Assembly: GCA_944386175.1 (NCBI GenBank)
Contig: CALXAB010000001.1
Span: 47,645 to 111,644, forward strand
Direction of reading: 5' to 3'
DNA from: an uncultured Clostridia bacterium
GTDB taxonomy: Bacteria > Bacillota > Clostridia > TANB77 > CAG-508
Length of the DNA stretch: 64,000 bases
A program made the translations under genes and the position numbers. Below the pieces are notes generated by a model. The model did no database searches. It was not told the origin of the DNA and was given only the letters and a program-made list of their open reading frames with translations. Shown here piece by piece: positions 35,451 through 57,939 of the stretch; positions within the stretch are counted from its first letter, which is position 1; each line of letters opens with the position of its first letter.

Positions 35451-36125
35451 TTAAAATTCCCTTATATCATATCTAAAATATAGTCCATCCATTTTTATTT
35501 TATGAAAATCTTTTATTATATTTTCTTTGACTTTATTAAAATCTTTTCCTACTCTTCTTAATGCAAATACTCTACCTCCTGAAGGATATAGTATATTATT
35601 TTTTGATATTATATGTTCCCCTATAATATCTGTTGTATTTTTTACTTTGTTCATACCTAAAATTGGTTCATCAAAACTACTTCTTTCTACTTCTGGATAT
35701 CCTGCTGAAAATCCATACATTGCTATAGAAAAGCAGTCTTTTTTCCAACAATTATTTATCTTTTCTACATCTTCATAAAAGAAATTTATTATATCTATAA
35801 AAGGTTTATTCAGTAACCCTAATAAAGCTAACCACTCTGGATTACCTGTTCTTGTATTATATTCTAATACATATACTTTTTTATCTTCGGTAACCATTAT
35901 TCCTATATATAAAATATAGTTATATTCCATATTTTCTTTTTTCATACCTCTTATAGTTGGTTCTATTATATCTTTTTTTAATTGTTCTTCTTTTTCTGTG
36001 CTAACTCTTGCATAAGCACATACTCTTAAATTACCTTTTATAACTTCTCCTGTTGTTCTATTAATTCTTCCTTTTTTCTTCTCTATTACTTGTACTTTCA
36101 AATTTAACCTCTCTTTCTCAAGCAT
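35451..36125 (-). pseudogene. purD: Chimeric ORF: the first 48 codons of a large serine recombinase, including the catalytic RVST, fused in frame to the C-terminal ~175 aa of phosphoribosylamine-glycine ligase (PurD)
   Basis: The N-terminus MLEKERLNLKVQVIEKKKGRINRTTGEVIKGNLRVCAYARVSTEKEEQ is identical, apart from one I-to-N substitution, to the start of the intact recombinase at 48681-50573. The remainder (VLEYNTRTGNPE...YGFSAGYP...SGGRVFALRRVG...GLYFRYDIR) aligns with the PurD ATP-grasp C-terminus. Confidence 0.7.
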
Positions 36126-36168
36126 AGAGAATCTTTATGTTTGTATTATATACTAAAATTTTATATTT

Positions 36169-36354
36169 TTAAATACCTATGTGGATTAAATTATATTCTT
36201 TTAAAATATTTTGTTTTAGTTCTAAATATCTTTTCTCTTTAATTAATCCTGCATTATATGTTTTATTTAGAATTGCTATTTTAATGCTACAATTAAAAAT
36301 ATTTTCATTTAGTTTTACATTTTTCGTATTATCAAATTTTACTTCGTACAACAT
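36169..36354 (-). CDS. Small conserved protein of 61 aa encoded immediately upstream of the serine recombinases
   Basis: A strong RBS agaggagga precedes it. It is paralogous to 50617-50802 and, more distantly, to 42882-43058. Confidence 0.5.
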   Translation of the reverse strand: MLYEVKFDNTKNVKLNENIFNCSIKIAILNKTYNAGLIKEKRYLELKQNILKEYNLIHIGI

Positions 36355-36379
36355 AAAAATCCTCCTCTGCTTGAATTAA

Positions 36380-36890
36380 ATTTCAAAAAAGAGCGACAAA
36401 AAAGCCAGCCGGCTAGCTAGACTGACTTCTTTGTCTTACATTTTTTGATAATACAATTATATTATGCTGTTCTATAAAGTTCAATTCCCGTTTTTTTCCC
36501 TTTTTTCTATTTTAATTGATAAAGCGTTGACTTTTTAGTTAGTACACTAAGTAAACTTGTGTAAAAATTTTTTTAATTATTTTTTACTTTATTATTTTTG
36601 AGTTCACTTAGTGTACTTTTTGTTTTGTATTTAAAAACCTTAGTTCACTTAGTGAATAAAAAACTAACTTTCAAGTACACTTGGTGAACTTTTTCTTAAA
36701 AATCACTTATTTTTCGTTCATTTAGTGAACTTTTGCACTCTCAAAGGCATTTTTTAGCTGTTCATTCGGTGAATTTCCGCATCAAATTTGCTTAAAATTT
36801 TTGTTCTTTTGTTAACTCTTGAAGGCTTGTCCTTCAATGTGTATAGGCGATGTGTGCACACTCGCTTTCCTGCCTTTAGTATTGTTTTTT
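36380..36890. repeat. Array of parS-like 15-bp palindromes (GTTCAC-N3-GTGAAC and variants, 6 sites) plus a conserved hairpin
   Basis: Sites TAGTACACTAAGTAAAC, GTTCACTTAGTGTAC, GTTCACTTAGTGAAT, GTACACTTGGTGAAC, GTTCATTTAGTGAAC and GTTCATTCGGTGAAT. The region is about 95% identical to 50940-51350. Confidence 0.8.
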
Positions 36891-36891
36891 A

Positions 36892-38670
36892 TCATATATT
36901 AATTACTTTTTGTTGACTCATATATAATTTATAATAATTTCCTTTTATGCTCATTAATTCTTCATGAGTTCCATATTCTACTATTTCTTTATCTTTAATA
37001 AAAAATATTCTGTCACTATCCACTATTGTAGATAATCTATGAGCAATCGTTATTACAGTTTTATTTTTAACCATTTCTTTTGTTAGATTTTGTAGCATTT
37101 TTTCTGTTTTTACATCAATCTTACTTGTTGCTTCATCGAAGATTAATATTTTAGGGTTATTAATAATTGTTCTTATATAGCATAATACCTGTTTTTCTCC
37201 ATCTGATAGATTTTTTCCATTACTACTTAATTTTGTATTGTATCCATCTTCTAAACTCATTATCCAATTATGTACATTCAATCTTTTACATATTTCTATT
37301 ACTTTATCATCAGTTATATTTTCATTTCCATATTTTAAATTTTTCATAATGCTTGTACTAAATAAGTAATTTTCTTGTTGCATAATAGCTATCTGTTTTC
37401 TAAGTCTATTTAGTTTTATATTTCTAACATCTTCTCCATCAATAAAAATATTTCCTGAATCTATATCATAAAATCTTCCAATTAGATTTGTAATAGTGGT
37501 TTTTCCACTTCCTGTACTACCTACAATAGCTACTTTTTCTTGCGGTTTTACTTTAAAAGATATATTATTTAAAACTTTATTATTTTCTATATAAGAAAAA
37601 CTAACATTTTTAAATTCTATTTCACCTTTTATTTTGATGTCTTTAGCATCTATTTTATCTTTTATATCTATTTTTTCATCCATTGTTTCAAATATTCTCT
37701 CTAAATATGTAATTGAATTAATAAAATCATCTAATGTTTTAAATAAGTCTTCTATAGGTTGCCAAAAGTTAGATGAATAACTTCCCATAGCAACAATAGT
37801 TCCAACTGATGTAGTTGGATATAAAAACATCGCTCCTACAAAATATATTGTTGCAGTTACCCAATGTGACATTGTTTGTACACTACACCATCCAATATTG
37901 CCAAATTTTATTTGTTTGCAACTTGCATCTTTCCAACTTCTACTTAAATCATTAAATATATCTTCATTCTTTTCTTCTCTATTAAATGCTTGGGTTATTT
38001 GCATTCCTTTTAATGTTTCTAATAGATATGCATTAGTATTAGAATTTTTATTATTAATTAGTAATTTATTTTTTCTCTTTATCTTAGCTGTTGAAGCAAA
38101 TATAAAAATAAGTATTACTATTCCAACTAATGCGATTAATGTTAGTTTCACACTTGTTAAAAACATAAATATCAGAATAATAAGCATATTAAATATGTTT
38201 AAAAATGTTGTTACTAATTTATCTGTAATTAGAGTAGAAACATCTTCTGCATATTCTGTTAGTCTAACTAGTATTTTTCCATGAGGTCTTGTGTCGTAAT
38301 AATTAACTGATAAATACTGAATATGTGAAAACAAATCATTTTTTATATCTTCTACAATATTTTGATTTACTTTAGCCAACATTTTTTTATACACTTTAGT
38401 TACAATAATAGACAATAATACTAAAAATAATGCTAATAATATTATGATAAACAATTTTTCATAATCGCTATTAGGAATAACATCATCGATTACATATTGT
38501 AGTATTTTAGTGATAAATAAAGTAGCTATAATAGATATACAATTTAAAATAAATATAATAATCAATTTTGATTTATATTTTTTTATGTATGTTAAACCTC
38601 TTTTATAATTAGAAAGACTGAATGAAGTATTTTTTTCATCTTGGTCATATTTGTTTACACTCATATACAT
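36892..38670 (-). CDS. ABC exporter, fused permease-ATPase subunit (type I exporter half-transporter)
   Basis: Six TM helices followed by an NBD with Walker A GSTGSGKTT, signature LSDGEKQ and Walker B ILIFDEA. Confidence 0.85.
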   Translation of the reverse strand: MYMSVNKYDQDEKNTSFSLSNYKRGLTYIKKYKSKLIIIFILNCISIIATLFITKILQYVIDDVIPNSDYEKLFIIILLALFLVLLSIIVTKVYKKMLAKVNQNIVEDIKNDLFSHIQYLSVNYYDTRPHGKILVRLTEYAEDVSTLITDKLVTTFLNIFNMLIILIFMFLTSVKLTLIALVGIVILIFIFASTAKIKRKNKLLINNKNSNTNAYLLETLKGMQITQAFNREEKNEDIFNDLSRSWKDASCKQIKFGNIGWCSVQTMSHWVTATIYFVGAMFLYPTTSVGTIVAMGSYSSNFWQPIEDLFKTLDDFINSITYLERIFETMDEKIDIKDKIDAKDIKIKGEIEFKNVSFSYIENNKVLNNISFKVKPQEKVAIVGSTGSGKTTITNLIGRFYDIDSGNIFIDGEDVRNIKLNRLRKQIAIMQQENYLFSTSIMKNLKYGNENITDDKVIEICKRLNVHNWIMSLEDGYNTKLSSNGKNLSDGEKQVLCYIRTIINNPKILIFDEATSKIDVKTEKMLQNLTKEMVKNKTVITIAHRLSTIVDSDRIFFIKDKEIVEYGTHEELMSIKGNYYKLYMSQQKVINI

Positions 38671-40379
38671 TCCTCCATATTATTTACTTGAATATCATAA
38701 ATTTCTTTATATTCTCCATTCTTATTCAATAATTCTTCATGTGAACCACTCTCTATGATTTCTCCGTTTTTCATTACAAATATGACATCAGCATTTTTTA
38801 CAGAAAGAATTTTTTGTGCAATTATAATTTTTGTACATCTATATTTCAAATTATTAATATTTTCAGTAACTTCTAATTCAGTTTCAAAATCTAGTGCGGA
38901 AGTTATATCATCTAATATTAATATACTAGGTCTCTTAGCTAATGCTCTTGCCAAAGATAAACGCTGTTTTTCACCTCCTGATAAACTCACTCCATTTTCT
39001 CCTATTATTGTATTAATATCCTCTGGTAAATCAAATACATAATCAGCTTTAGCCAATTTTAAACATTTTTTTATTTCTTCTTCTTTTAAATCTTCATTTC
39101 CAAAACTAACATTATTGGAAATAGTATCAGAAAACAGAAAAGGAGTTTGAGAAACATAACCGATATTTTTTCTTAATGATTTTAATGTATATGTATTTAT
39201 TAAATTATCGTCTATTTCTATCTTTCCACTTGAACATTCTATCAGTCTTAACATCAGTTTTCCAATAGTAGATTTTCCACTCCCTATTTCTCCAATAAAT
39301 GCATAAGTCTTATTGGGCTTTAAATCTAAATTAATATTTTTTATAACTTTCCTATTATTAAGTTTGACATTAACCCCTTTAAAAATAATATTTTCCCAAT
39401 TATTTAATATTAAACTTCCTTTATCTTTTATTTTAGGTTCAGTTTCTAATAATTTTCTTACTTTTGATACAGATACTCTAAATTGTTGCCATTCATTTAT
39501 AAAACCACTTAATTCTATAAACGGTTTTCTTATAGTGCCTATAAAAGAATTAATAATAATAAATTGTCCCATTGTCGTGTAACCTTTTATAACAAATATT
39601 CCCCCAAATAAAGTTAATAATATTTGCATACAATATGATAAAAATGTGACTATATTGTCATAAGAGATATTCATATTTTGTATTTCTAAATTCTTATTTT
39701 TCAAATTTCTATTCTTTACTTTAAAGTTATCTATTTCTTTTTGTTCTGTTGCAAATGTTTTGATTAATCTATTTCCTTCTATATTTTCTTGTATATAATT
39801 ATTTAGGTTTGACAAACTTTCTCTTTGATCTTTATATAATTCCTTTGATTTTTTTATATGTTTTTTAGATATAACTGCAATTATAGGAGTAGGTATTAAA
39901 ATAATTAGTGTTAAAATTGGGTTTATATATAGGCAGTAAATTGTAGTTAAAATACTAGTAGTTAACATGCTTATAGATTGTTTTATCACAAAACACATAT
40001 TATGATGAATAATGCTATTATCTGTTGTTAAAAGCGTGCTTATTTCTCCCAAAGTTTTTTCTTCGTAAAAATCTTGATTTAATTCATTCAATTTTTTATA
40101 ACATTCAACTTTTAACTTATGTGCTAAATTAAATCTAACATGATCCATTATTAATATTCCAAAATAAGTTATCAGCCTACCTATAAAATACATACTAATA
40201 GATATAATAAAAAGGTATGGAATAATAGAAAAATTACTCTCATATATACCTTTATCTATTATTTCTCCTAATAGTATAACTGGTAATATTTTAGAAATTC
40301 CTCCACCTAATATTATCATTAAATTTGAAATCCAATATCTAAAATTATATTCTTTAATAAATTTTAATACCCATCTCAT
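38661..40379 (-). CDS. ABC exporter, fused permease-ATPase subunit (heterodimer partner)
   Basis: Six TM helices followed by an NBD with GEIGSGKST, LSGGEKQRLSLARAL and ILILDD. Confidence 0.85.
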   Translation of the reverse strand: MRWVLKFIKEYNFRYWISNLMIILGGGISKILPVILLGEIIDKGIYESNFSIIPYLFIISISMYFIGRLITYFGILIMDHVRFNLAHKLKVECYKKLNELNQDFYEEKTLGEISTLLTTDNSIIHHNMCFVIKQSISMLTTSILTTIYCLYINPILTLIILIPTPIIAVISKKHIKKSKELYKDQRESLSNLNNYIQENIEGNRLIKTFATEQKEIDNFKVKNRNLKNKNLEIQNMNISYDNIVTFLSYCMQILLTLFGGIFVIKGYTTMGQFIIINSFIGTIRKPFIELSGFINEWQQFRVSVSKVRKLLETEPKIKDKGSLILNNWENIIFKGVNVKLNNRKVIKNINLDLKPNKTYAFIGEIGSGKSTIGKLMLRLIECSSGKIEIDDNLINTYTLKSLRKNIGYVSQTPFLFSDTISNNVSFGNEDLKEEEIKKCLKLAKADYVFDLPEDINTIIGENGVSLSGGEKQRLSLARALAKRPSILILDDITSALDFETELEVTENINNLKYRCTKIIIAQKILSVKNADVIFVMKNGEIIESGSHEELLNKNGEYKEIYDIQVNNMEECI

Positions 40380-40511
40380 TTATATTTTTTCTCCAATATT
40401 TATTATATTTTTATATTACTTTTCATATTCTATCATAATTTTATTTCTTTCTCAATAAAATTATAAAGTTTCAAAATATATTTATCCTTACATTTGCTTA
40501 ATTATGAAAAA

Positions 40512-40586
40512 ATCCGCAATAGAAATAATGTCAAGAGCGAGTGATAATGAGTTTATTTACTCTTGATATTATTTTTATTGCAGATT
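40512..40586. promoter_or_regulatory. Long palindromic operator (24-bp arms, 22-bp spacer) with inward-facing TTGACA boxes and divergent promoters
   Basis: CTCCAATAGAAATAATGTCAAGAG ... CTCTTGACATTATT. On the + strand, TTGATA-N17-TAAATT. A near-identical copy at 57947-58026 has TTGACA-N17-TAAAAT. Confidence 0.6.
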
Positions 40587-40821
40587 AAATTTACCCTGCA
40601 AATGTATGAGGCAAAAAATAAGTATCAGTACATATCTACCGACACTTAAATTTATAAAGATTCTCTATTACTTATTTCATAAATTCTTTCTAGCAATTGA
40701 AATAACTGATAATTTTACATATCTACAATTAAACACAACCTATATATGTCATGCTTATCATAGACACAATCTCAAATTCCCTAGTATTTCAAACACTTCT
40801 ATCAATTTTCTAAAATTTAAT

Positions 40822-41004
40822 TTATGTGTTTCCACTTACCACATCTGCAACTACTTTAACTTTCACATCTGAATTTTGATGTTTTTCTCTTCCATATCTT
40901 CCTTTTTTCTCGAAAGTTATAATCTCTGAAAACATATCAAATTCAAGTATTACCTGTCCTGTTTTAGTTGTAGCACTGCCACACATTCCACATGTGTTGG
41001 TCAT
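40822..41004 (-). CDS. Questionable small ORF (60 aa, MTNTCGMCGSATTK...) inside the conserved transporter leader
   Basis: A paralogous sequence at about 58370-58560 is conserved in translation, but that copy has no start codon. It could be a leader or regulatory RNA rather than a protein. Confidence 0.2.
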   Translation of the reverse strand: MTNTCGMCGSATTKTGQVILEFDMFSEIITFEKKGRYGREKHQNSDVKVKVVADVVSGNT

Positions 41005-42679
41005 CTCTGGTTGCAGTAAGTTTTAAATGTTGTTTATCTCCTGTTGCAGTAAAATTGTCTTTACAATTTATTTCTGTTCCGTTTTTACAAATAAACCTTA
41101 TTGTATATGGATTTATTGTACCATTTTCTAATGTTTCCCCAATTATTACTTTCTCTATTATACATTCAAAAATATCTTTATCAAAATTTTTCATTATTTC
41201 CATATCTTTAAATAAACCTTTAAACTTGTTTAATCTATGTTTAATACTTTCATTTCTGTTTGTGTCTTTTAGTAGGTTTTGTATTTTCTGTTCTACTTTT
41301 AATAGTTCTATGTTTAGCTCATCATATTTTAAAGTATATTGTTCTTTATTTATTCTGCCTTCTAAGTTTAGTTCTAATAGATTATTAAGTTTCTTGTTTA
41401 TTTTCTCTTTGTCTTTTTCTAGCTTATTTACTACTGTTTCTGTAGTATTTTCTTTTAAGACATTTTCTATTTTTTCTAAAAAATCTTCTACTACTTTTTT
41501 ATTGTTGTTACAGAGTATTCTATATCCTTGTACAAAACAATCTTCTAGTATTTCTTCTGGTATTGCTTTACAGTATGGGCATTCTTCTTTTCCATGTTTT
41601 GCTCTTTTGATACATTGCCATACTGCTTTTTCATATTTTCTTTTTGAGTTCCAGTTTCTTCTTGTAAGTAAGCTACCACAAAATCCACAATATAATTTAC
41701 TACTAAAAGCATATTTCTTACTATAGTTATTATTTCTTCTTCCTGTTTCTCTTGTTCCTACTCGTTTTATTCTTATTTCTTGTACTCTATCAAATAACTC
41801 TTTACTAATAATTGGCTCATGATGTTCTTTTATATAATGCTTTTCTGCTTCTCCTAAATTGCTTAATCTTTTATGTGATATTGGATCTATTGTAAATGTT
41901 TTTCCCATTAGCACATCTCCAATATATTTTTCATTTTTTAGTATTCCTCTTATTGTTGATTCGTTCCAATTATCATTACCTTTTGGGGATTTAATGCCTT
42001 TTGCTTTTAGTTCTTTTGCTATTGTACTTGAACCTATTCCGTCTACATATCTTTCAAATATATATTTTATAACTTCTGCTTGTTCCTCATTTATAGTTAT
42101 CTGTTTTGTTATTAAATCATAGTTATAACCGTAACAACCATTATAGCCAATTAACTCTCCCCTGTCTTTCTTCATTTTTAGTCCAAGCAATACATGTGAA
42201 GATATGTTCTCACTTTCTTGTTGTGCCATAGCACTTAATACTGTTAGTAGCATTTCTCCTGTTCCTGATAGAGTATTTAGATTTTCTTCTTCAAATAAAA
42301 CTGCAATGTTCTTTTCTTTTAGCATTCTTACATATTTTAAAGTATCTAATGTGTTTCTAGCAAATCTTGATATGGATTTTGTTAAAATCATATCAAATTT
42401 TCCAGACATTCCATCTGTTATCATTTTCATAAAGTCTGTTCTTTTAAAATCTAATGTGCCACTTATAGATTCATCTGCATATATTCCTGCAAATTGCCAT
42501 TCAGATTTGCTATTGATTTTTTCATCATAATACTTTAATTGTGATTGGTAACTATTTAATTGTTCTTTATTTCCTGTACTAACTCTACAATATGCACATA
42601 CTCTTAATCTTTCTTTGATTGTTGTACCTGTTACTCTGTTAATTCTTCCGTTTGTTTTCTCTATGACTTGAATTTCCAT
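40964..42679 (-). CDS. Large serine recombinase (resolvase domain plus recombinase and zinc-ribbon domains), 571 aa
   Basis: Catalytic RVCAYCRVSTG...YQSQ motif near the N-terminus, a C4 zinc ribbon (CGFCGS...C..C) and a coiled-coil C-terminal region. It is 60-70% identical to the recombinase at 48681-50573. Confidence 0.85.
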   Translation of the reverse strand: MEIQVIEKTNGRINRVTGTTIKERLRVCAYCRVSTGNKEQLNSYQSQLKYYDEKINSKSEWQFAGIYADESISGTLDFKRTDFMKMITDGMSGKFDMILTKSISRFARNTLDTLKYVRMLKEKNIAVLFEEENLNTLSGTGEMLLTVLSAMAQQESENISSHVLLGLKMKKDRGELIGYNGCYGYNYDLITKQITINEEQAEVIKYIFERYVDGIGSSTIAKELKAKGIKSPKGNDNWNESTIRGILKNEKYIGDVLMGKTFTIDPISHKRLSNLGEAEKHYIKEHHEPIISKELFDRVQEIRIKRVGTRETGRRNNNYSKKYAFSSKLYCGFCGSLLTRRNWNSKRKYEKAVWQCIKRAKHGKEECPYCKAIPEEILEDCFVQGYRILCNNNKKVVEDFLEKIENVLKENTTETVVNKLEKDKEKINKKLNNLLELNLEGRINKEQYTLKYDELNIELLKVEQKIQNLLKDTNRNESIKHRLNKFKGLFKDMEIMKNFDKDIFECIIEKVIIGETLENGTINPYTIRFICKNGTEINCKDNFTATGDKQHLKLTATRDDQHMWNVWQCYN

Positions 42680-42699
42680 CTTTCCTCCGTTCCGCCTAG

Positions 42700-42770
42700 A
42701 GATAAAACTTAATAATTTTATTTTATAGAAAAGTGCATTTTAATGCATCTTTTCTATAAAACAAGGTTAA
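42700..42770. promoter_or_regulatory. Perfect 13-bp inverted repeat (TTTTATAGAAAAG / CTTTTCTATAAAA) plus two more hairpins in the leader between the small ORF and the recombinase start
   Basis: Seen directly in the sequence. It is absent from the paralogous module at 50574-50617. Confidence 0.35.
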
Positions 42771-42881
42771 TTTACCTATATTTGCCCGAGCTTTAGCTCG
42801 TGGCATTTGAGCCTAGAAATCTTTGATTTCGTTAAGGCTCAATTATCTTATATCATTTTTTAGATAAAAAGTAAATTGTTC

Positions 42882-43058
42882 TTACAAAAGTTTATAATCT
42901 TTTAAGATTTTTCTTTTTATTTCAATATATTCTGAATCTAGTATTAAGTTTTCTCTAAACAAATTATTTAAAAACAATAATTCCATGCTACAGTCTAGCA
43001 TATTATTATCTTTTAGTTGTTTAGAGTTATCTACTTCTATTTTATAATTATGTAGCAT
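42882..43058 (-). CDS. Small conserved protein of 58 aa upstream of a serine recombinase
   Basis: Start taken at MLHNYKIEVDN. It is colinear with the 61-aa paralogues (ML.E.K.DN.K...N.F.C...Y.E.K..IL.EY.L). Confidence 0.45.
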   Translation of the reverse strand: MLHNYKIEVDNSKQLKDNNMLDCSMELLFLNNLFRENLILDSEYIEIKRKILKDYKLL

Positions 43059-43199
43059 GAAATTGCTCCTTTTCTTTAAATTTGAAAAGAAAAAGAACAA
43101 AGAAACTAGAATCTTTCTAATCCCTTTGCTCTTTCTCTTTCATACTACCATTATATTATCGTGTTTTTATATAGTCAATTCCATTTTTATTCCCTCTTT

Positions 43200-43625
43200 T
43201 CTATTTTTGATATAATTCTAGTATCTAATTTTATAAGTACACTAAGTAAACTAAAAATTGTATAATTTTAAATTGCAGTTCACTTGGTGTACTAGAAAAA
43301 TATAACAAAAGTTCACTAAGTGTATTTGTAAATTTTGTTTTATTTTCACATTCACTTAGTGAACTAAATTCAAAAATATTATTCAATATCAAGTACACTT
43401 GGTGAACTTTTTCCCAAAATAAGTGAATTTTTTTAATTTTTTAATTCACCATTTTTAATTTTGAACGAAGAATAGCGGGTTTGAGCCAGTTCACCGAGTG
43501 AATTTTTACATCATATTTGCATAAAATTTTTGTTTTTTTATTAACTCTTGAAGGCTTGTCCTTCAATATGTATAGGCATTTTGTTAAGAATGCTATCCTG
43601 CCCTCATTTTCAATGAGGTATTTTG
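43200..43625. repeat. parS-like palindrome array (GTTCACTTGGTGTAC, GTTCACTAAGTGTAT, TTCACTTAGTGAAC, GTACACTTGGTGAAC, AGTTCACCGAGTGAAT)
   Basis: Same family as the 36380-36890 array. It ends with ...TTAACTCTTGAAGGCTTGTCCTTCAATATGTATAGGC. Confidence 0.75.
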
Positions 43626-43788
43626 CTCTTAAAATGTACTTATTCTACTTAATTAAATATACTTATCCTTAAATCCTCTTAATCGAAAAACAATGTGCTT
43701 TTAAAAATAAGTCAAGGTTGTGCGATAGCACATTTATTTAAACCTTGACTTGTTTTTATAAAGCACATTATACTTTTCTAAAAGGATT

Positions 43789-45240
43789 TTAACTATTTAT
43801 AAAAAATTGAATTATTGCAAATATTCCCATATCTGAAATTGTTTTTATTGCATCTACATTAGCAATAACTTTATAAGGGTGATGAATTACTAAATCTAAA
43901 TAGTTTTTCATTCCTTCATTATTAAAACATGTCTCCCATGCTCTTGAAATAGTATCGTCATCAATAAGATTTTGTTTATCTATTGATATTTTATTTATAA
44001 TCTTCTCTAATCTCAAGTCCAAATTATTATTTGCAGATTTCCATTTTTCCCATTTTCCTTTGTTTATTAAAAAATAGATGCTTGATTGTTCTAATAATGA
44101 GCGGATTAAAAAGCAATATGATATTGGGTAATTTTTATATAAATTTCCAAATGATAAATGCTGAATTTCATAGCATAGATTTTTAATCCCTTTAGCTCTA
44201 TCATTACTATATTTTAGTTTGCTACAATTAATATTTTTAAATAAAATACTATTGTCTTTTCTTGTTAATCTGATTTTATTAAATGCTATACTTTCATTTA
44301 TTTTATTTTTTACTATTTCACTTTCATTGGCATTATTATGTTTTTCTTCTCTACCATTAGAAAATATCTTCATTTGTTCATTTTTATTTTCTAAATTTTC
44401 ATTTATTTTATCTTTGCTGTCAAACCTTTCACTAACATTATTTTCTATATTGCCATACAAATATTTTTCTATATTAGCATTATTTTTTATTGTGTTACTT
44501 GTAATCCTACCACTTACAATATCTTGAACAATTCGTAATACTTTCTTGTCTAATTCATTTATTGAAGACAATGGCATTAAAACATTGTTATTAAAAGAAA
44601 TATTCAGATATTCTTTACCAACTTTTGAAGAAACAATCTTTTCAAACTTATTTACTGAAAAATTATTGTCAACTCCATCAAATGCTTTTTTACAAAATCC
44701 TTGTAATTGTGAAAATATATTTTTTACTCCCATTTTATCTTCAAATCTTTTTATTGAAGCTGTATCCCATTTTAAAGCTCCTGTATCAGTTGTATGTACA
44801 TTTCTTATATATCCAGCACAATCTTCAAATGAAGTGGCCACATAACAAGGAATTTGAAAATATTCTTCTCCTTGAATTCCTGCACTCATTGCATATATGC
44901 TTCTTATTTGTGTATATGAAAAGTATTTAAAAGATTCTACCAATTTAGGATTTTTTAAGATTTTCATTGCTGTTAATCTTCTATTACCATCCCATGCCAC
45001 AAATTTTTCTTTTTTCTCATCATAAGTGACTGTAACTATTGATTGTGGATACCAACCATTTGTGTAAATATCACTAATTAACTTATGCATTGCCTTCGCT
45101 TCTTTAGAATTTCTCACCAATTGTTGCATTATAAAAAGTTCATCCGCTATCATAATTTGTGTATGTCTTGGATTCTCTGGATTTACTAATATTTTTTCTA
45201 TGTCTATTAGTTGATGTTCTCTCATATATAATTCCCCCAT
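43789..45240 (-). CDS. ParB/Srx-superfamily (DUF262-like, DGNRR motif) protein with a long C-terminal extension
   Basis: LVNPENPR and VAWDGNRRLTAM are the ParB N-terminal-domain boxes. A possible His-Me/HNH-like DLVIHHP lies near the C-terminus. Confidence 0.55.
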   Translation of the reverse strand: MGELYMREHQLIDIEKILVNPENPRHTQIMIADELFIMQQLVRNSKEAKAMHKLISDIYTNGWYPQSIVTVTYDEKKEKFVAWDGNRRLTAMKILKNPKLVESFKYFSYTQIRSIYAMSAGIQGEEYFQIPCYVATSFEDCAGYIRNVHTTDTGALKWDTASIKRFEDKMGVKNIFSQLQGFCKKAFDGVDNNFSVNKFEKIVSSKVGKEYLNISFNNNVLMPLSSINELDKKVLRIVQDIVSGRITSNTIKNNANIEKYLYGNIENNVSERFDSKDKINENLENKNEQMKIFSNGREEKHNNANESEIVKNKINESIAFNKIRLTRKDNSILFKNINCSKLKYSNDRAKGIKNLCYEIQHLSFGNLYKNYPISYCFLIRSLLEQSSIYFLINKGKWEKWKSANNNLDLRLEKIINKISIDKQNLIDDDTISRAWETCFNNEGMKNYLDLVIHHPYKVIANVDAIKTISDMGIFAIIQFFINS

Positions 45241-45294
45241 TTTTTACCTTATAAAGTCTTTCGTAAATCCCTCATCATTCTTAAGTATATTATT

Positions 45295-46812
45295 CTATTT
45301 TTTTGCAATATATTTTTGATTTTTAGTATTTGGTTTATCTGGTATAGTCATTTGCAATTTTCCACTATCTAATAATGGTCTCATGTATTTTAAATAGAAA
45401 TTTCTTCTGTCTTTTAATCCTAAATATGCCATTATTTCTTTTGTTGTTTTTGGTTCTCTACAAAATTCTAATATTTTATCTTGATGGGTATCTTGGTGGA
45501 TATCTTGGTGGGTTGTTGGTCGGTCTTTTATCTCATTTTCAAATCTATCATGTATAAATATTGTTGTAATAAAATAATCTCTTGTTTCATTTGTTTCAAA
45601 CTCTGGTTCTTTTGAGCCATTATTTTTCAATGCTCTTTTTATTTTTGGAATACCTGTATTTCTACCTTCTGTTAATTTTAATTCTTTTAAAAACTCTCCA
45701 ATTCTACGATTTCTATATTTTCTTGCTATCATATTTTTATCTTCAATTGATTTTTCGCTTATTGAACGGTCTGGTCCTGGATAACTTACAATATGAATTC
45801 TATCTTCCATTATTCTTACTTCTACTGGTTCCCTTACATCATATCCTCTATGATAAACTGCATTTACTAATGCTTCTTCTATTGCTTGATATGGATAATT
45901 AAAAAATCTTACAGCCTCCGCTTGTCCATCTATCTTTAAAATTTTTTCCATAATAACAGTATTTTTAATATATGTTAAAGCACTTTTTATCATAGTATCA
46001 ATAGGTCCTTTAAATATTTGCTCTGTCATATCATCACCTTCTGGACCGTTTCTTAAATCTACTACTTCTATTTGTGAATATGGAAAGAATTTTTGTGGCT
46101 CATCATTAAAAAACATTAACCCTACATTTAAAGGTTTCATATATTCTGGTGTTCCATCTACTATTCTCATACTTTTACATAAATCTATAAAACTCATTGT
46201 TTCGGATTCTTTTAATAGTTCACTCTTTATCTCATATAAGTAATTTTGAATTAGTGGTAGTTTTAAATCTTGAATTTGTGCCTCATGATTCATTCTATCA
46301 TCGAATGGTATTACTCTTGCCATATCATATAATTCTTTTTGCTCTACTTCTGTAGCTTTTACTGTACTGGACATTTTTCTAATATAATATGAATATCCTT
46401 TTGAAAAATCTTTATCTAGTGTTGTTGGACATTTGTATGGTCTATTCTGACCACCAAAACACCATACTACTAGTATATTTTTACCTTTATATTGAGCAAC
46501 ATCTACAATTGGTGTATAGGCTGGCTGTATCATTTTACATTTTGTTAGCAATTCTTTTTGAATTTTATCTATTTCAGATAATTGTAGCCCTTCAAAATCT
46601 TTCTTAGGTCTACCATTTGCTTCTTCAACACCTATTAAAATATATCCTCCACCCCAGTTATCTATATCATTTGCAAAAGCACAAATTGTATGTAATATTG
46701 GTTCTGGATTCCAGTTTCTCTTTAATTCTAATCTTGCATTTTCTACAATGTTTTCATTTAGTATATTTTCTATACTTGTAGGTAATCTCATCTTCTCACC
46801 TTTCTTTTTCAA
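45295..46812 (-). CDS. COG2865-type Schlafen-like (AlbA_2) ATP-binding / HTH protein
   Basis: An N-terminal AlbA_2/Schlafen-like DNA-binding domain (LELKRNWNPEPILHTICAFANDIDNWGGGYILIGVEE), a central HATPase_c_4-like region and a C-terminal HTH. Confidence 0.55.
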   Translation of the reverse strand: MKKKGEKMRLPTSIENILNENIVENARLELKRNWNPEPILHTICAFANDIDNWGGGYILIGVEEANGRPKKDFEGLQLSEIDKIQKELLTKCKMIQPAYTPIVDVAQYKGKNILVVWCFGGQNRPYKCPTTLDKDFSKGYSYYIRKMSSTVKATEVEQKELYDMARVIPFDDRMNHEAQIQDLKLPLIQNYLYEIKSELLKESETMSFIDLCKSMRIVDGTPEYMKPLNVGLMFFNDEPQKFFPYSQIEVVDLRNGPEGDDMTEQIFKGPIDTMIKSALTYIKNTVIMEKILKIDGQAEAVRFFNYPYQAIEEALVNAVYHRGYDVREPVEVRIMEDRIHIVSYPGPDRSISEKSIEDKNMIARKYRNRRIGEFLKELKLTEGRNTGIPKIKRALKNNGSKEPEFETNETRDYFITTIFIHDRFENEIKDRPTTHQDIHQDTHQDKILEFCREPKTTKEIMAYLGLKDRRNFYLKYMRPLLDSGKLQMTIPDKPNTKNQKYIAKK

Positions 46813-46842
46813 ATGTCCGTTTTTTCGGACTTATAAAATTTT

Positions 46843-47259
46843 TTATTTCATATAATCTCTAATTTTAAATAATAACTCATCATCTAATATCTCTGTTGAG
46901 GCAAAATTATTTAAAGTATTATTATCTTCCCAATCTATATCAAATAAATTTATCACTTTATCATATCTTGGGAAAGCATGATAATGAACAAATGGATCAT
47001 GCATCATCATAATCATATAATTAAACTTTATTGCTCCAAACCTGTCTCTACATAGTTCTTCATACCATTTTATTACTTTTGGAAATTCAGCACCTTCATC
47101 TTGTAACATTCCACTTACATTTTGTGTTTCTCTTTTCAATAAAATAACTACATCTCCTAATGTTGTTTGTTTTTGCCTAACACAAACAATCCAATACTTA
47201 AACTCTTTAATACAAAGTTCCTCTGGTCTAAATTTTTTCATAAATTCTAAATTGTCCAT
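46843..47259 (-). CDS. HIT-like small hydrolase (tentative)
   Basis: 138 aa with DPFVHYHAFP, which resembles the histidine-triad HxHxH motif. Confidence 0.3.
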   Translation of the reverse strand: MDNLEFMKKFRPEELCIKEFKYWIVCVRQKQTTLGDVVILLKRETQNVSGMLQDEGAEFPKVIKWYEELCRDRFGAIKFNYMIMMMHDPFVHYHAFPRYDKVINLFDIDWEDNNTLNNFASTEILDDELLFKIRDYMK

Positions 47260-47282
47260 TGATAAGACCTCCTCTTACATTT

Positions 47283-47920
47283 TTATTTTTTAAACATATC
47301 ATTTAAATTATGTGATATTAATTTTAAATTATCTATATTTTCCCCTTCAATAACATAAGGCGTACAATGTTGTATTTGCAATTCAAATACTCTTTCTCTT
47401 GGTTCAATCTTAAACATATTTAAAAATAAGCACCTTATTGCATGATAATGTGAGAATATTCCTATTGTTATATCATCATTAAAATCTAACGAATCAAGAA
47501 ATCTTTTACATCTTATACTAACATCAGTATAGTTTTCTCCTTTTGGTGCTTTTTGTACGAAATCTGTTCTAAATTTATTAAATTTTTCATCTGTAATATA
47601 TTCATTATATTCATTAGAAGCTAATAAATCCTTCTTTTCCTTCAAATATTCCTAAACATCTTTCTCTTAAATCTTTACTTAAATTTAGTTCATATCCTGG
47701 TTTAGCTAATTTTGCTGTTTGTATTGCTCTCATTAAATCTGAAGAATAAACTTTTTTAATACTTTTAATAATATCATTTTTTGCTAAAATACTTGCTTGA
47801 TTCTTTCCTTATTCTGTTAAACTCGTCAATTCATTATCTAAAGTTCCTGTGTATAAAGCTGTTCCTTCATCATTTATCACGTTTGCCATTGTTTGTCCAT
47901 GTCTAATTATAACTATTCTC
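47283..47920 (-). pseudogene. Histidine phosphatase (phosphoglycerate-mutase-like) gene broken by frameshifts
   Basis: The N-terminus MRIVIIRHGQTMANV (RHG catalytic motif) at 47920 runs into a stop after about 37 codons. Downstream pieces in other frames end with the 120-aa ORF. Confidence 0.55.
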
Positions 47921-47921
47921 A

Positions 47922-48506
47922 TTAATTGTTACCTTCCTTTTTATTCTTTATTGTTTCAATATATTCTTTAACATATGCGTTCATATCTCTATCAAATAGT
48001 TCTTTTGAATATTCTAATCTTAATAGTTCTTCTCTTAAGATTGGCAAATATACTTCTATAATTTCATCTAACGCCTCTGGTTCTTCTTCAATACATCTTT
48101 TCCATCTATTTTTTCCGATATAAGCAATTTTGTCTGCATCTCTTACAATTTTTCCTTCAACTGTTGGAGGAATACATTTTCTCTTATGATTTACTACTGC
48201 TGAATAACATTGTTCTATTATTTCATTACTATAACTTAACTTTTCCATTTCTTCTTTTAGAATTCTTCCGCTTTCTTCTTCATGTCCTTTATCTGTAACA
48301 GACCTTCCAACATCATGCCAATATGCAGCTATAATACATATTTCTTTATTAGCTGGTATCTCTTCTAATAATTCTTTTACATAGTTTACGACATCAATAG
48401 TATGACCTATAAAATGTAGAGGATCATTTTCACATACTTTCATTTTTTCTATAGCTATATCAATTAATTTTTTATTTTTATTATATATTTCTTCGTAAAT
48501 ATCCAT
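47922..48506 (-). CDS. HD-domain phosphohydrolase
   Basis: H...HD signature (IGHTIDVV...AAYWHDVGR). 194 aa. Confidence 0.65.
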   Translation of the reverse strand: MDIYEEIYNKNKKLIDIAIEKMKVCENDPLHFIGHTIDVVNYVKELLEEIPANKEICIIAAYWHDVGRSVTDKGHEEESGRILKEEMEKLSYSNEIIEQCYSAVVNHKRKCIPPTVEGKIVRDADKIAYIGKNRWKRCIEEEPEALDEIIEVYLPILREELLRLEYSKELFDRDMNAYVKEYIETIKNKKEGNN

Positions 48507-48680
48507 TCTATCTAAATTCTCCCTATCTCTATTCTTTTATATTTTGACCATATTTTACCATAAAACAATAAAAAAATAAAGCATATAACAAATTAAATTA
48601 TTACATACTTTACCTTTCAAGTTTTATCTCCAAACATTTTTATTTTTCGTTGACAAATCGTTGACATTATCAACAAGAAA

Positions 48681-50573
48681 TTATACTACTCCGCACACCA
48701 TGTCAACTTCTATCGTTACTTTAATTTTATGATTTTCTGTTCTTTTAACCTTATTTTTGCCTTTTCTATCAAAACTAATAAAATCTTCAAAAGCAGTAAA
48801 TTGGGCTATTGTATCGAATCTTTCAGACATAGCACCGAGCAACACTCCACATGGCTCACACCCAGTCTGTAGATAGTTTTGGCTTACCTCGTATGATGAC
48901 TGTTGCAAACTACCTTGATTTTTATCTTTTTGACATTTGATTTCGTTTCCAGATTTTAGGATAAATGTTATTACTCTTGGATTTACATCTCCATTTTGTT
49001 CTTTTTCTCCTATTATAACTTTTTCTATCATTAATTCAAAAACATCTTTATCAAATGTTGGCATTATTTCATCATCTTTAAATAGACTTTTAAACTTGTT
49101 TAATCCTTGATTTAAACTAATTGAATCTTCTAACTCTAGTTGTAAATGTTCTTGCTCTTTTTCTATTTTGTTTATCTTGTTTTGTAATTTTGCCTTTTTA
49201 TCTTTTAATGTTTCAAGTGTTATTGTTCCATTCAAGTTTAAATCAATTAACTTGTCTATCTTTTCTTTTAAAGTTTGTTTTTCTTCTTCTAATTTTTTAA
49301 TAGAACTTTCATTACTTTCTTCTTGTATGATTTCTTCCATTTGTTTTAAGAATGTTTTGATTAGTTTTTTGTTATTATTACATAAAAGTTTATAACTTTC
49401 TGTAAATGCTTCTTCTATAATGTTTTCTTTCATTGCTTTACAATATGGGCAATTTTCTTTTCCATGTTTTACAAATTCCATACAATGCCATACCGTAATA
49501 CTATTTTTTGTTCCAGAGTGCCAGTTTCTTCTTGTTAATAAACTTCCACAAAAACCACAATATATTCTACTACTAAAAGGATATTTTCTGCTAAAGTTTC
49601 CTTTTCTTCTTCCAGAGCCTCGTACTCCTCCTCGCTTTTGTAATATTTCTTGTGCTTGATTAAACATTCTTTCTGAAATAATTGGTTCATGATGTTCTTG
49701 TATGTAATACTGATTTTCTTCTCCCATATTGACTACTCTTCTATGTGAGATTGGATCTGTTGTATATGTTTTTCCTTGTAAGACATCTCCTTTGTATTTT
49801 TCGTTTTTCAAAATACCTCTTATAGTTGAGTCATGCCATTGTTTCTTTCCTGTTGGTGTTTTATATTTCATAGCAGTTAGTTCTTTTGCAATTGTTGTGC
49901 AACCTACTCCTTGACAGTATCTTTCAAAGATATATCTTACTATTTCTGCTTCTTGATAATTTACTGATATTTTCTTTGTTTCTTTATCATATACATATCC
50001 TAAACATCCATTATATCCAATTAATTCTCCTCTTTTTTGTTTCATCTGTAATCCTAGTTTTACATGAGAAGATATATTTTCGCTCTCCTGCTGTGCCATT
50101 GCACTCATTACTGTTAGCATTACTTCGCCAGATAATTCTAAAGTATTGATGTTTTCTTCTTCAAAATAAATAGTGATTCCTTTTTCCTTTAATAATCTTA
50201 CATACTTTAAAGTATCTACTGTATTTCTTCCAAATCTTGATATTGATTTTGTAATTATCATGTCAAATTTGTTTTCTGTTGCATCTTGCATCATTCTCAT
50301 AAAGTTATCTCTTTTATAGTCAAGTGTTCCTGTTATCCCTTCATCTGCATAAATCCCTACATAAGTCCAATCACTTCTTGATTTTATTTTTTCTTCATAA
50401 TATTTTAGCTGAGAATTATAACTATTTATTTGTTCTTCTTTTTCTGTACTAACTCTTGCATAGGCACATACTCTTAAATTGCCTTTTATAACTTCTCCTG
50501 TTGTTCTATTAATTCTTCCTTTTTTCTTCTCTATTACTTGTACTTTCAAAATTAACCTCTCTTTCTCAAGCAT
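48681..50573 (-). CDS. Large serine recombinase, 630 aa
   Basis: Catalytic RVCAYARVSTEKEEQ...YNSQ motif, a zinc-ribbon CGFCGS...CPYC and a coiled-coil. It is paralogous to 40964-42679. Confidence 0.85.
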   Translation of the reverse strand: MLEKERLILKVQVIEKKKGRINRTTGEVIKGNLRVCAYARVSTEKEEQINSYNSQLKYYEEKIKSRSDWTYVGIYADEGITGTLDYKRDNFMRMMQDATENKFDMIITKSISRFGRNTVDTLKYVRLLKEKGITIYFEEENINTLELSGEVMLTVMSAMAQQESENISSHVKLGLQMKQKRGELIGYNGCLGYVYDKETKKISVNYQEAEIVRYIFERYCQGVGCTTIAKELTAMKYKTPTGKKQWHDSTIRGILKNEKYKGDVLQGKTYTTDPISHRRVVNMGEENQYYIQEHHEPIISERMFNQAQEILQKRGGVRGSGRRKGNFSRKYPFSSRIYCGFCGSLLTRRNWHSGTKNSITVWHCMEFVKHGKENCPYCKAMKENIIEEAFTESYKLLCNNNKKLIKTFLKQMEEIIQEESNESSIKKLEEEKQTLKEKIDKLIDLNLNGTITLETLKDKKAKLQNKINKIEKEQEHLQLELEDSISLNQGLNKFKSLFKDDEIMPTFDKDVFELMIEKVIIGEKEQNGDVNPRVITFILKSGNEIKCQKDKNQGSLQQSSYEVSQNYLQTGCEPCGVLLGAMSERFDTIAQFTAFEDFISFDRKGKNKVKRTENHKIKVTIEVDMVCGVV

Positions 50574-50616
50574 AGAGAATCTTTATGTTTGTATTATATA
50601 TTAAAATCTTATATTT

Positions 50617-50802
50617 TTAAATACCTATATGAGTTAAATCATATTCTTTTAAAATATTTTGTTTTAGTTCTAAATATCTTTCCTCTTTAATTAGTCCTGC
50701 ATTATATGTTTTATTTAGAATTGCTATTTTAATGCTACAATTAAAAATATTTTCATTTAGTTTTACATTTTTCGTATTATCAAATTTTACTTCGTACAAC
50801 AT
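50617..50802 (-). CDS. Small conserved protein of 61 aa upstream of a serine recombinase
   Basis: About 95% identical to 36169-36354. Start at MLYEVKFDN. The upstream extension in the ORF track is not supported. Confidence 0.5.
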   Translation of the reverse strand: MLYEVKFDNTKNVKLNENIFNCSIKIAILNKTYNAGLIKEERYLELKQNILKEYDLTHIGI

Positions 50803-50939
50803 AAAAATTCTCCCTTGCTTAAATAAAATTTCAAAAAAGAGCAATAGAAAAAGCCAGTCGGCTAGCTTCGACTGACTTCTTTGTCTGACATTTTTTGATA
50901 ATACGATTATATTATGATGTTCTATAAAGTTCAATTCCC

Positions 50940-51350
50940 GTTTTTTTCCCTTTTTTCTATTTTAATTGATAAAGTGTTGATTTTTTAGTTAGTACACTAA
51001 GTGAACTTGTGTAAAAATTTTTTTAATTATTTTTTACTTTATTATTTTTGAGTTCACTCGGTGTACTTAGTTTTTTATTATATCAATTTTTAGTACACTT
51101 AGTGAACTAATTATAAATTATTTCATAAAATTTAGTACACTTGGTGAACTTTTTCTTAAAAATTACTTATCTTTCGTTCATTTAGTGAACTTTCACACTC
51201 TAAAAGAGATTTTTTAGTCATTCATTCGGTGAATTTTTGCATCAAATTTGCTTAAAATTTTTGTTCTTTTATTAACTCTTGAAAGCTTGACCTTCAATGT
51301 GTATATGCGTTGCGTGATGCACGCTATCCTGCCTTTAGTGTTCACTTTAT
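50940..51350. repeat. parS-like palindrome array (the full copy, contiguous with the intact recombinase module)
   Basis: About 95% identical to 36380-36890 over roughly 0.9 kb when the small ORF and the recombinase 5' end are included. Confidence 0.8.
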
Positions 51351-51355
51351 ATCCT

Positions 51356-53209: not shown

Positions 53210-53265
53210 ATTTTGCTCCCATTTTCATATATTCATTTAATTATTCTATGTATGTAGTTATTAGA

Positions 53266-54701: not shown

Positions 54702-54810
54702 AAATTTTCTCCTTTGCCGTTTTCATTCGTAAATATTATATCATTTACGAATAAAAACGGCAACAATATTTAAAAAATTAATAGCACAAAATTAAAATTT
54801 GTGCTAAAAT

Positions 54811-55296: not shown

Positions 55297-55325
55297 TTTC
55301 TTCTCCTTATTTAAATAATAAAAAA

Positions 55326-56481: not shown

Positions 56482-56498
56482 ATTTTAATTCACCTTCG

Positions 56499-57494: not shown

Positions 57495-57500
57495 TAATAT

Positions 57501-57833: not shown

Positions 57834-57939
57834 ATTCTATTCTCCTAATCTTTACTGTATATAATATATCATAAATTCCTTAATTTTACAATGAAATCGC
57901 CAATATTTTAATATTACATATATCTTTACATTTGCTTAA

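What the first reader, a model, noticed from the sequence alone, without database searches (positions are those of the whole stretch)
40964..41002. The recombinase gene at 40964-42679 ends 36 bp inside the sequence shared with an unoccupied paralogous site
Leader copy 1 and copy 2 stay homologous up to CCACATGTGT(T)GGTC (41002 / 58544) and then diverge completely. Beyond that point copy 1 continues into the recombinase and copy 2 into unrelated DNA. So the last ~12 codons of the recombinase (…HMWNVWQCYN*) are encoded by the shared sequence. This fits an att crossover overlapping the 3' end of the recombinase gene, with integration at a site of the form ACATGTGTGGTC. It gives a candidate attB-like sequence and one element boundary.
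Basis: seen in the sequence. Interest (0 to 1): 0.55.

Follow-up and report, generated by a model that had tools for sequence, protein, structure and literature searches.

The report
Serine-integrase att junction in an island array
The recombinase gene does end across its own recombination site. The "second copy" is not an empty target. It is the end of a neighbouring mobile element of the same kind, a type already described in streptococci that normally inserts into the tail of the rRNA methyltransferase gene rumA.

Summary
The two copies are 84-89% identical over about 565 nt. Homology stops at 41002/58544, 36 nt plus the stop codon inside recombinase gene 40964-42679.

The shared sequence is not a host leader with an empty site. 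It is a mobile module of about 570 nt, seen as 76 copies across 78 loci from related gut Clostridia genomes. Its 5' edge is sharp, at CATGTGGA (40994-40987).

In 35 copies the module follows a RumA/RlmCD methyltransferase gene and supplies its last 11-14 codons. In others it follows the 3' ends of at least four types of large serine recombinase.

The window holds three such elements in tandem (35977-58537), each built as module, cargo, regulatory region, recombinase body. Copy 2 is the left end of the newest element. A metagenome contig (L098) with the identical host flank lacks that 9.7-kb element, and its junction lies inside a 12-nt core.

The 40994 junction is the right end of the middle element.

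rumA-targeting serine integrases whose att site lies inside their own 3' end are already described in streptococcal ICEs, prophages and vanG elements. LSR1 is 48% identical to such recombinases. This is a new member of a known kind.

The parts
40964..42679 (-). LSR1, a 571-aa large serine recombinase. Its last 10 codons and stop are encoded by the adjoining module.
   Evidence: Pfam Resolvase, Recombinase and Zn_ribbon_recom domains. The same 571-aa architecture, ending 25-37 nt into the module, recurs in loci from other species and in metagenome contigs, at 76-94% identity. It is 48% identical to recombinases of Streptococcus '_rum' prophages.
40987..40994 (-). Core CATGTGGA, where the right end (attR) of element E1 meets the left end of remnant E2'. 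The most likely crossover dinucleotide is CA at 40994-40993.
   Evidence: The conservation edge is sharp across 76 copies. In rumA-adjacent copies, host-like synonymous scatter stops at -1 and position +5 is G in 34 of 35. The dyad symmetry CCACA-CA-TGTGG is centred on CA.
40995..41017 (-). P arm of LSR1 (ACTGCAACCAGAGATGACCAACA), the recombinase-side half site. A similar 23-nt unit lies 33 nt upstream, at 41050-41028.
   Evidence: Conserved in 14 LSR1-type junctions. It resembles the 3' end of the streptococcal rum-phage recombinase gene, GACCAGACAACA|CACGTTGAGG. The repeat is seen.
40424..40994 (-). Module M1' (copy 1). It holds a rumA-tail mimic, the 60-codon sORF (41004-40822; its ATG lies in the LSR1 P arm), a terminator-like hairpin, and an outward promoter-like site just upstream of the ABC genes.
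   Evidence: Per-column conservation of 0.7-0.98 over about 570 nt in 76 copies. Variation in the first 45 nt falls at third codon positions of the rumA frame. Terminator at 40648-40619 and promoter at 40455-40427.
57862..58537 (-). Module M1 (copy 2), the left end (attL) of element E2. It contains a 105-nt insertion at 58046-58150. The 3' limit is approximate.
   Evidence: Alignment with copy 1. L098 carries the same flank but joined to M2. L180 and L181 carry the occupied allele.
58538..58547 (-). A 10-nt stub, AGCGACCACA, identical to the P arm of a third recombinase type (LSR3). Host DNA begins upstream of it.
   Evidence: Identical 10-mer next to the core in L034 and L012. No sequence beyond about 58750 is shared with any other species' locus.
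48854..58537 (-). Element E2 (9,684 bp): M1, cargo Z (SnoaL-like, APH, GNATs, Sel1, AbiEi/AbiEii, 617-aa ORF), regulatory region U2, and the LSR2 body.
   Evidence: Absent from allele L098, with the junction inside the 12-nt core. rumA|M1 followed 5-7 kb downstream by an LSR2-type gene recurs in L015, L016, L031, L039 and L063.
48681..50573 (-). LSR2, a 630-aa large serine recombinase. Its C-terminal 58 aa are encoded in frame by module M2 beyond the core at 48853-48842.
   Evidence: Pfam domains. Its C-terminus aligns with the sORF. The M2 core is read directly. On a native rumA tail, in L051, LSR2 stops at CEPC*.
40995..48853 (-). Element E1 (7,859 bp): M2, cargo Y (HD, His_Phos fragment, 138-aa ORF, Schlafen/ATPase-like, PD-Lambda-5_A-like), U1, and the LSR1 body.
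   Evidence: The same unit sits directly after rumA in L048 as rumA|M2...LSR1|M1. It follows an LSR2 gene in L078 and L088-L091.
35977..40994 (-). Remnant element E2': M1', two ABC exporter genes, region Uc, and the first 48 codons of an LSR2-type gene fused in frame to the C-terminal part of purD (35451-35976).
   Evidence: The same fusion is present in same-species contigs L088-L092.

Best explanation
Positions 40994-40987 are the core of a large-serine-recombinase attachment site lying inside the 3' end of the LSR1 gene.

The unit of mobility is a small element, circularly permuted relative to the gene map. It reads: ~570-nt module, cargo genes, regulatory region U, recombinase body. In the excised circle the recombinase body is joined to its own module, which forms attP. 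The P arm is the 3' end of the recombinase gene and the P' arm is the start of the module.

The family's normal attB is the 3' end of the 23S rRNA (uracil-5) methyltransferase gene rumA/rlmCD, at ...F-T-x|H-V-E.... The incoming module replaces the last 11-14 codons of rumA. It also recreates an attB-like junction at the left end, so further elements pile up there.

The window holds such an array, at a place that is not rumA: host flank | E2 | E1 | E2' remnant fused to purD. The inferred order of arrival is E2', then E1, then E2.

The junction in the finding is the right end of E1, where the LSR1 body meets the module of the older element. Copy 2 is the left end of E2.

Shown: the junction classes, the module's mobility, the E2 presence/absence polymorphism with its junction inside the 12-nt core, and homology to rum-specific integrases.

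Inferred: that LSR1 itself is active, the order of arrival, and the exact crossover. The crossover is most likely the CA at 40994-40993 and is bounded to positions 0 to +4 of CATGTGGA.
For: 1. The module has a sharp 5' edge at CATGTGG in 76 copies from different species. The DNA upstream of the edge falls into several unrelated classes.
2. In 35 copies the upstream DNA is a methyltransferase ORF with TRAM and tRNA_U5-meth_tr domains, in most cases of about 455-478 aa, completed by the module as HVECVAVLQLKQDM*. Module variation there falls at third positions of the rumA frame.
3. The other classes are the 3' ends of LSR1-, LSR2-, LSR3- and LSR4-type genes.
4. Only 35977-58546 of the window is shared with loci of other species.
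5. L098 carries the identical 529-aa permease and host flank, joined to M2 through the 12-nt core CATGTGGAGTGT. That is the window minus E2. L180 and L181 carry the E2-occupied form.
6. E1- and E2-type units occur in either order, and directly at rumA, in other genomes: L048, L078, L015 and others.
7. In L051 the LSR2 body is joined to a native-looking rumA tail, HVECVCVLKRR*.
8. LSR1 is 48% identical over 93-95% of its length to recombinases of Streptococcus phages named '_rum'. Their gene ends GACCAGACAACA|CACGTTGAGG..., which reads HVEVVGLLVKS* in the rumA frame.
9. Published descriptions report the same arrangement (PMC4701971; PMC4120198).
Against: There is no rumA in this window, and no fully empty site for the whole island was found. 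A permease-based metagenome scan gave no synteny.

Both outer ends of the island look eroded. The left end keeps a 10-nt LSR3-type stub and the right end is an LSR::purD fusion. So the island's arrival at this locus is not explained by a clean attB x attP event.

No presence/absence polymorphism was seen for E1 itself, and no circular junction was observed.

L098 is a short-read contig that ends 18 nt past the core.

For the related vanG and ICE-r elements the published crossover dinucleotide is GA (PMC4120198). That would be 40988-40987, whereas my sequence statistics favour CA.
Confidence: 0.85

Rival explanations
1. The shared sequence is a host 'leader' present in two paralogous copies. 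An LSR1 element inserted into copy 1, and copy 2 is the empty attB-like site.
For: The two copies diverge exactly at the recombinase junction. Copy 2 has no recombinase directly upstream.
Against: The module is mobile. It sits next to unrelated flanks in 76 copies. Everything between the two copies is shared with elements of other species. Copy 2, together with 9.7 kb downstream of it on the gene strand (the minus strand), is absent from allele L098. Copy 2 also carries a 10-nt recombinase P-arm stub.
Confidence: 0.05
2. LSR1 plus the 60-codon sORF is a single 618-aa gene broken by a one-base insertion (a pseudogene or a sequencing error). The homology boundary is then a deletion end point, not an att site.
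For: Deleting one A in GACCAACAC gives an ORF colinear end to end with LSR2. LSR3-type genes and some LSR1-type fragments read the sORF in frame.
Against: The 571-aa form, in the -1 frame relative to the sORF, is the conserved state in about fifteen loci from other species. The boundary recurs at the same nucleotide next to many unrelated flanks. LSR1-type tails diverge right after QHMW.
Confidence: 0.07
3. The array and the L098 allele arose by homologous recombination or replication slippage between repeated modules, without any recombinase activity at this core.
For: The modules are long direct repeats. Both ends of the island show ordinary deletions.
Against: M1 and M2 share only 12 identical nt at the L098 junction and diverge immediately after it. 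That is too short for RecA-dependent exchange, and it sits exactly at the family-wide core. Homologous elements in streptococci are accepted as serine-integrase products (PMC4701971).
Confidence: 0.03

Closest known systems
rumA-targeting single serine integrases of streptococcal ICEs, IMEs and prophages (Ambroset et al. 2016, PMC4701971; Coluzzi et al. 2017, PMC5357655; 'phi-..._rum' phages)
   Same: The recombinase is a large serine recombinase at one end of the element. The att site lies inside its own 3' end. The target is the 3' end of rumA, and integration exchanges the 3' ends of rumA and the integrase reciprocally. LSR1 is 48% identical to such recombinases. The core and P arm are alike: AACA|CAYGTKGA.
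   Different: The hosts are uncultured low-GC gut Clostridia. The elements are 5-10 kb units that carry only cargo or defence genes, with no conjugation or phage genes seen. They carry a ~570-nt highly conserved module. This particular array is not at rumA.
vanG elements and ICE-r inserted in rumA (Srinivasan et al. 2014, PMC4120198)
   Same: [quoted passage not shown] The left end is an ORF segment without a start codon, joined to the 5' part of rumA. Two different elements can sit side by side in rumA. The site is conserved across species.
   Different: In those elements the left-end segment (115 codons) is in frame with rumA. Here the rumA frame ends after 11-14 codons and the 60-codon sORF is in another frame. 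The reported crossover there is GA. The statistics here favour CA, 6 nt upstream.
SCC elements (CcrAB/CcrC) at the 3' end of rlmH/orfX in staphylococci (from my own knowledge)
   Same: Large serine recombinases integrate cargo cassettes into the tail of an rRNA methyltransferase gene. The gene end is restored, and a usable site is regenerated so that composite tandem arrays build up.
   Different: The target gene is different (rlmH, not rumA), as is the recombinase clade. There the att site is not inside the recombinase gene.
Mx8 integrase, whose attP lies within int (Magrini et al. 1999, as cited in PMC4701971)
   Same: Integration changes the C-terminus of the integrase because attP lies in its coding sequence.
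   Different: It is a tyrosine recombinase in a myxophage.

Membership tests
Large serine recombinase | N-terminal resolvase catalytic domain with a serine nucleophile | tested here: met
   PF00239 at residues 28-175, E 1e-27. The motif CRVSTGNKEQ is present.
Large serine recombinase | Recombinase domain plus zinc-ribbon domain C-terminal to the catalytic domain | tested here: met
   PF07508 and PF13408, in both LSR1 and LSR2.
rumA-specific single serine integrases (Ser_4 of PMC5357655) | Sequence relatedness to known rum-specific integrases (the authors clustered at 40% identity) | tested here: met
   48% identity over 93-95% of LSR1 to recombinases of phi-SsuZKB4_rum, phi-SgaBSJ31_rum and phi-SgaBSJ27_rum.
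rumA-specific single serine integrases | att site located inside the 3' end of the integrase gene | tested here: met
   The module edge lies 10 codons before the LSR1 stop. LSR1-type tails diverge after QHMW. LSR2 is truncated on a native rumA tail in L051.
rumA-specific single serine integrases | Integration into the 3' end of rumA, with exchange of the gene's 3' end | tested here: inconclusive
   Met for the family: 35 of 76 module copies complete a RumA-type ORF, including E1- and E2-type units (L048, L015 and others). Not met for this copy: the window has no rumA, and the array abuts an ABC permease gene.
rumA-specific single serine integrases | Two-base staggered crossover shared by attP and attB | not testable with these tools
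   Only bounded. It lies within the 12-nt core by L098, and within positions 0 to +4 by substitution pattern and dyad symmetry.
SCC (ccr) elements | ccrAB/ccrC recombinases and integration at rlmH (orfX) | tested here: not met
   The target gene of the family is a TRAM plus tRNA_U5-meth_tr methyltransferase. The best homologues are rum-phage recombinases. It works like SCC but is not a member.
Integron | Tyrosine IntI integrase with attI/attC cassettes | tested here: not met
   The recombinases are serine type. Each repeated unit carries its own recombinase.

The most novel reading that the evidence does not exclude
The ~570-nt module may be a portable landing pad. In one piece it carries a replacement rumA tail, an attB-like half site, terminators and an outward promoter. 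That would let defence and cargo islets stack without limit, and even set up a docking site away from rumA, as seems to have happened here.

Its 60-codon ORF may also be a swappable C-terminal domain. LSR2- and LSR3-type enzymes would gain it only when joined to a module (in the circle or inside an array) and lose it on a native rumA tail. LSR1 always reads the module out of frame. This would give state-dependent recombinase isoforms that could set directionality.
Probability: 0.25. Interest if true: 0.5.

Novelty: new member of a known kind. Interest (0 to 1): 0.3.

Why it matters
The result gives precise boundaries for three small recombinase-driven islets, two of which carry phage-defence genes, in an uncultured gut Clostridia lineage.

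It extends the rumA-targeting serine-integrase family, so far described mainly in streptococci and enterococci, to many gut Clostridia species.

It provides natural attP- and attB-like sequences for at least four related recombinase types that share one core. That could be useful for recombinase engineering.

It does not reveal a new mechanism.

Tried and rejected
- Rfam at gathering and E-value thresholds found nothing meaningful in the module or the U regions. No tRNA genes were found.
- I considered the idea that the 60-codon sORF is a separate host gene. All 72 database homologues are short, but they sit in modules next to recombinases or rumA. Codon periodicity is only weak.
- I rejected a frameshifted-pseudogene reading of LSR1 because the -1 arrangement is conserved.
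- I searched for an empty site through exact-protein look-ups. These gave only the same architecture, apart from L098. A metagenome scan with the flanking permease returned 80 loci, none with a module, rumA or purD downstream.
- A protein search with the LSR1 C-terminus returned only short fragments, although these did show variable tails.
- Dyad-symmetry scoring was informative for LSR1- and LSR4-type sites but flat for LSR2 sites.

Full report
**Observation.** The window has about 25% GC. ORF 40964-42679 on the minus strand encodes a 571-aa protein with Resolvase, Recombinase and Zn_ribbon_recom domains, so it is a large serine recombinase, here called LSR1. A base-by-base alignment of 40400-41080 with 57840-58640 shows 83-89% identity over about 565 nt. 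Copy 2 has a 105-nt insertion. On the + strand the homology ends at CCACATGTGT(T)GGTC, that is 41002/58544. The stop codon of LSR1 is at 40964-40966, so its last 12 codons lie in the shared sequence.

**What the shared sequence is.** It contains a 60-codon ORF (sORF, 41004-40822) that overlaps the end of LSR1 in another frame, followed by about 400 nt of non-coding DNA. A search with the sORF found 72 homologues, all 42-99 aa long. A scan of one genome per species with the sORF alignment returned 78 loci, almost all from uncultured gut Clostridia MAGs.

I aligned 76 copies from -200 to +700 around the sORF start. They share a ~570-nt module with 0.7-0.98 per-column conservation. Its 5' edge is very sharp, at CATGTGG (window 40994), and its 3' edge lies about 45 nt before whatever gene follows. 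The genes downstream of the module differ between loci.

In the window the module contains a terminator-like hairpin (40648-40619). Near its 3' end it has a promoter-like site facing the cargo (40455-40427).

**What lies upstream of the edge.**
- In 35 of 76 copies it is the 3' end of a conserved gene ending ...QPVDMFPFT(S)|HVECVAVLQLKQDM*. In most of these the reconstituted ORF is about 455-478 aa. It has TRAM and tRNA_U5-meth_tr domains, so it is an RlmCD/RumA-type 23S rRNA (uracil-5) methyltransferase. The module supplies its last 11-14 codons in a third reading frame.
- Within the first 45 nt of the module, the variable sites are the third codon positions of that rumA frame. This shows selection for the rumA tail.
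- In 15 copies the upstream DNA is an LSR1-type gene. It is always 571 aa and always ends 25-37 nt into the module.
- Other copies follow LSR3-type genes (55% identical to LSR2, reading the sORF in frame), LSR4-type genes (which stop about 30 nt before the edge), an LSR2 P-arm stub (L061), or miscellaneous flanks.

**The second recombinase in the window.** LSR2 (48681-50573, 630 aa) carries a C-terminal 58-aa domain that aligns with the sORF to the last residue. Its DNA has the same core, GAGC|CATGTGGAGTGT (48853-48842). This region is a second module type, M2. It also occurs directly after rumA (L048, L075) and reads HVECCSVLYLKDSIQ* in the rumA frame. In L051 an LSR2 body is joined to a different, native-looking rumA tail (HVECVCVLKRR*), and LSR2 then stops at CEPC*.

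**Units of mobility.** The arrangement rumA|M1, then 5-7 kb, then an LSR2-type gene recurs in L015, L016, L031, L039 and L063. The arrangement M2, then about 5 kb, then LSR1|M1 recurs in L048, L073, L075, L078 and in same-species contigs. The unit of mobility is therefore module, cargo, regulatory region U, recombinase body.

**The island in the window.** Only 35977-58546 is shared with loci of other species. In gene order on the minus strand the island reads:
- host ABC permease;
- a 10-nt stub (58547-58538);
- E2 (58537-48854): M1, AbiE and other cargo, U2, LSR2 body;
- E1 (48853-40995): M2, PD-Lambda-5_A-like and Schlafen-like cargo, U1, LSR1 body;
- E2' (40994-35977): M1', two ABC exporter genes, Uc, and 48 codons of an LSR2-type gene fused in frame to the C-terminal half of purD.

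**Direct evidence that the core is a recombination site.** Contig L098 (Logan, ERR4836933) encodes the identical 529-aa permease and has the identical host flank and stub. It continues CATGTGGAGTGT|TGCTCGGTGCTATGTCTG, which is M2 rather than M1. That is exactly the window with E2 removed. The junction falls inside the 12 nt that M1 and M2 share, which is far too short to be a de Bruijn assembly artefact at k=31 or a substrate for RecA. L180 and L181 carry the E2-occupied form. So copy 2 is the occupied left end of E2, not an empty site. E2 is polymorphic in the population. The junction of the finding is the right end of E1.

Because L098 appears to have E1 without E2, the inferred order of arrival is E2', then E1, then E2. 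New elements enter at the junction next to the flank, which each incoming module regenerates. L098 ends 18 nt past the core, so the presence of E1 in it is itself inferred.

**Position of the crossover.** In the 35 rumA-adjacent copies, four-fold degenerate third positions on the host side are scattered. Position -10 is A14/T10/G10/C1 and position -4 is A25/G4/T4/C2. In contrast the valine third position at +5 is G in 34 of 35. The exchange therefore lies between 0 and +4. Dyad symmetry peaks with CA (0/+1) as the centre, as in CCACA-CA-TGTGG. It scores 14.3 of 24 for LSR4-type sites and 12 of 24 for a reconstructed LSR1|M2 attP. I therefore favour CA at 40994-40993. For the related vanG and ICE-r elements, GA was reported (PMC4120198). 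Here that would be 40988-40987. Both lie inside the 12-nt core.

**Comparison with what is known.**
- LSR1 is 48% identical over 93-95% of its length to recombinases of Streptococcus prophages named '_rum'.
- In phi-SgaBSJ31_rum the recombinase gene ends GACCAGACAACA|CACGTTGAGGTAGTTGG.... In the rumA frame this reads HVEVVGLLVKS*. The core and P arm are the same as here.
- Ambroset et al. 2016 (PMC4701971) describe the single serine integrases of streptococcal ICEs that target rumA. They report direct repeats of 2-21 bp in rumA and in the integrase gene, and a reciprocal exchange of the two 3' ends.
- Srinivasan et al. 2014 (PMC4120198) describe recombinase genes that lack a stop codon at the element end, and a start-less ORF at the left end.
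- Coluzzi et al. 2017 (PMC5357655) report IMEs in rumA and tandem accretion.
The arrangement is therefore already known. This is a new member, in another bacterial group and in a small defence-islet format.

**Open points.**
- The array is not at rumA, and both of its outer ends are eroded, so its arrival at this locus is unexplained.
- Whether LSR1 is active was not tested.
- The function of the sORF-encoded domain is unknown. It is conserved at about 30% identity between M1 and M2 and shows weak codon periodicity.

Noticed in passing
window 35451-36125 (-): An in-frame chimeric ORF. The first 48 codons of an LSR2-type recombinase (96% identical to LSR2 at the DNA level) are fused to the C-terminal half of purD (GARS_A and GARS_C). 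The same fusion is present in same-species contigs L088-L092. It looks like a deletion that removed the rest of the recombinase and the 5' half of purD.
   Followed up: partly
window 50574-51375, 42680-43644, 36126-36915: Each recombinase gene is preceded by a conserved 'U' region. It holds four to six near-palindromic 15-mers (GTTCACTAAGTGAAC-like), a 58-72-codon ORF with no Pfam hit (MLYEVKFDNTKNV...), and a conserved hairpin (TTGAAGGACAAGCCTTCAA). This may be an operator array with a regulator or a directionality factor.
   Followed up: partly
window 20083-20349: A solitary fourth copy of the first ~240 nt of the U region (86% identical to 51134-51375), far outside the island, with no recombinase nearby.
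   Followed up: no
window 58046-58150: A 105-nt insertion found only in copy 2 of the module. It is rich in internal inverted repeats (ATCGGACGAAAATTTCAATTTTTTCGTCCGAT) and resembles a small MITE-like insert.
   Followed up: no
window 41050-41028 and 41017-40995 (-): The P arm of LSR1 is duplicated 33 nt upstream: ACTGCAACAGGAGATAAACAACA and ACTGCAACCAGAGATGACCAACA, encoding TATGDKQH and TATRDDQH. Some homologues have three such units (P0080). These may be extra binding sites or scars of past exchanges.
   Followed up: no
window 58538-58547; L061 ~7980-8010; L018 and L071 ~7965-8004: Modules that have lost their upstream recombinase gene still keep 10-27 nt of its P arm next to the core. This pattern recurs in unrelated loci.
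   Followed up: no
window 40964-41004 (-): All three reading frames are open across the core. One gives the rumA tail (HVEC...), one gives the LSR1 tail (HMWNVWQCYN*), and one gives the sORF (TCGMCGS...). The two cysteines of the sORF N-terminus are often arginine in other copies, so they are unlikely to form a zinc site.
   Followed up: partly
window 43789-45240, 45295-46812, 53266-54701 (-): The cargo includes phage-defence genes. They are a PD-Lambda-5_A-like protein (E 8e-43), a Schlafen/AlbA_2 plus HATPase_c_4 protein with weak hits to pAgo-associated models, and an AbiEi/AbiEii pair.
   Followed up: partly
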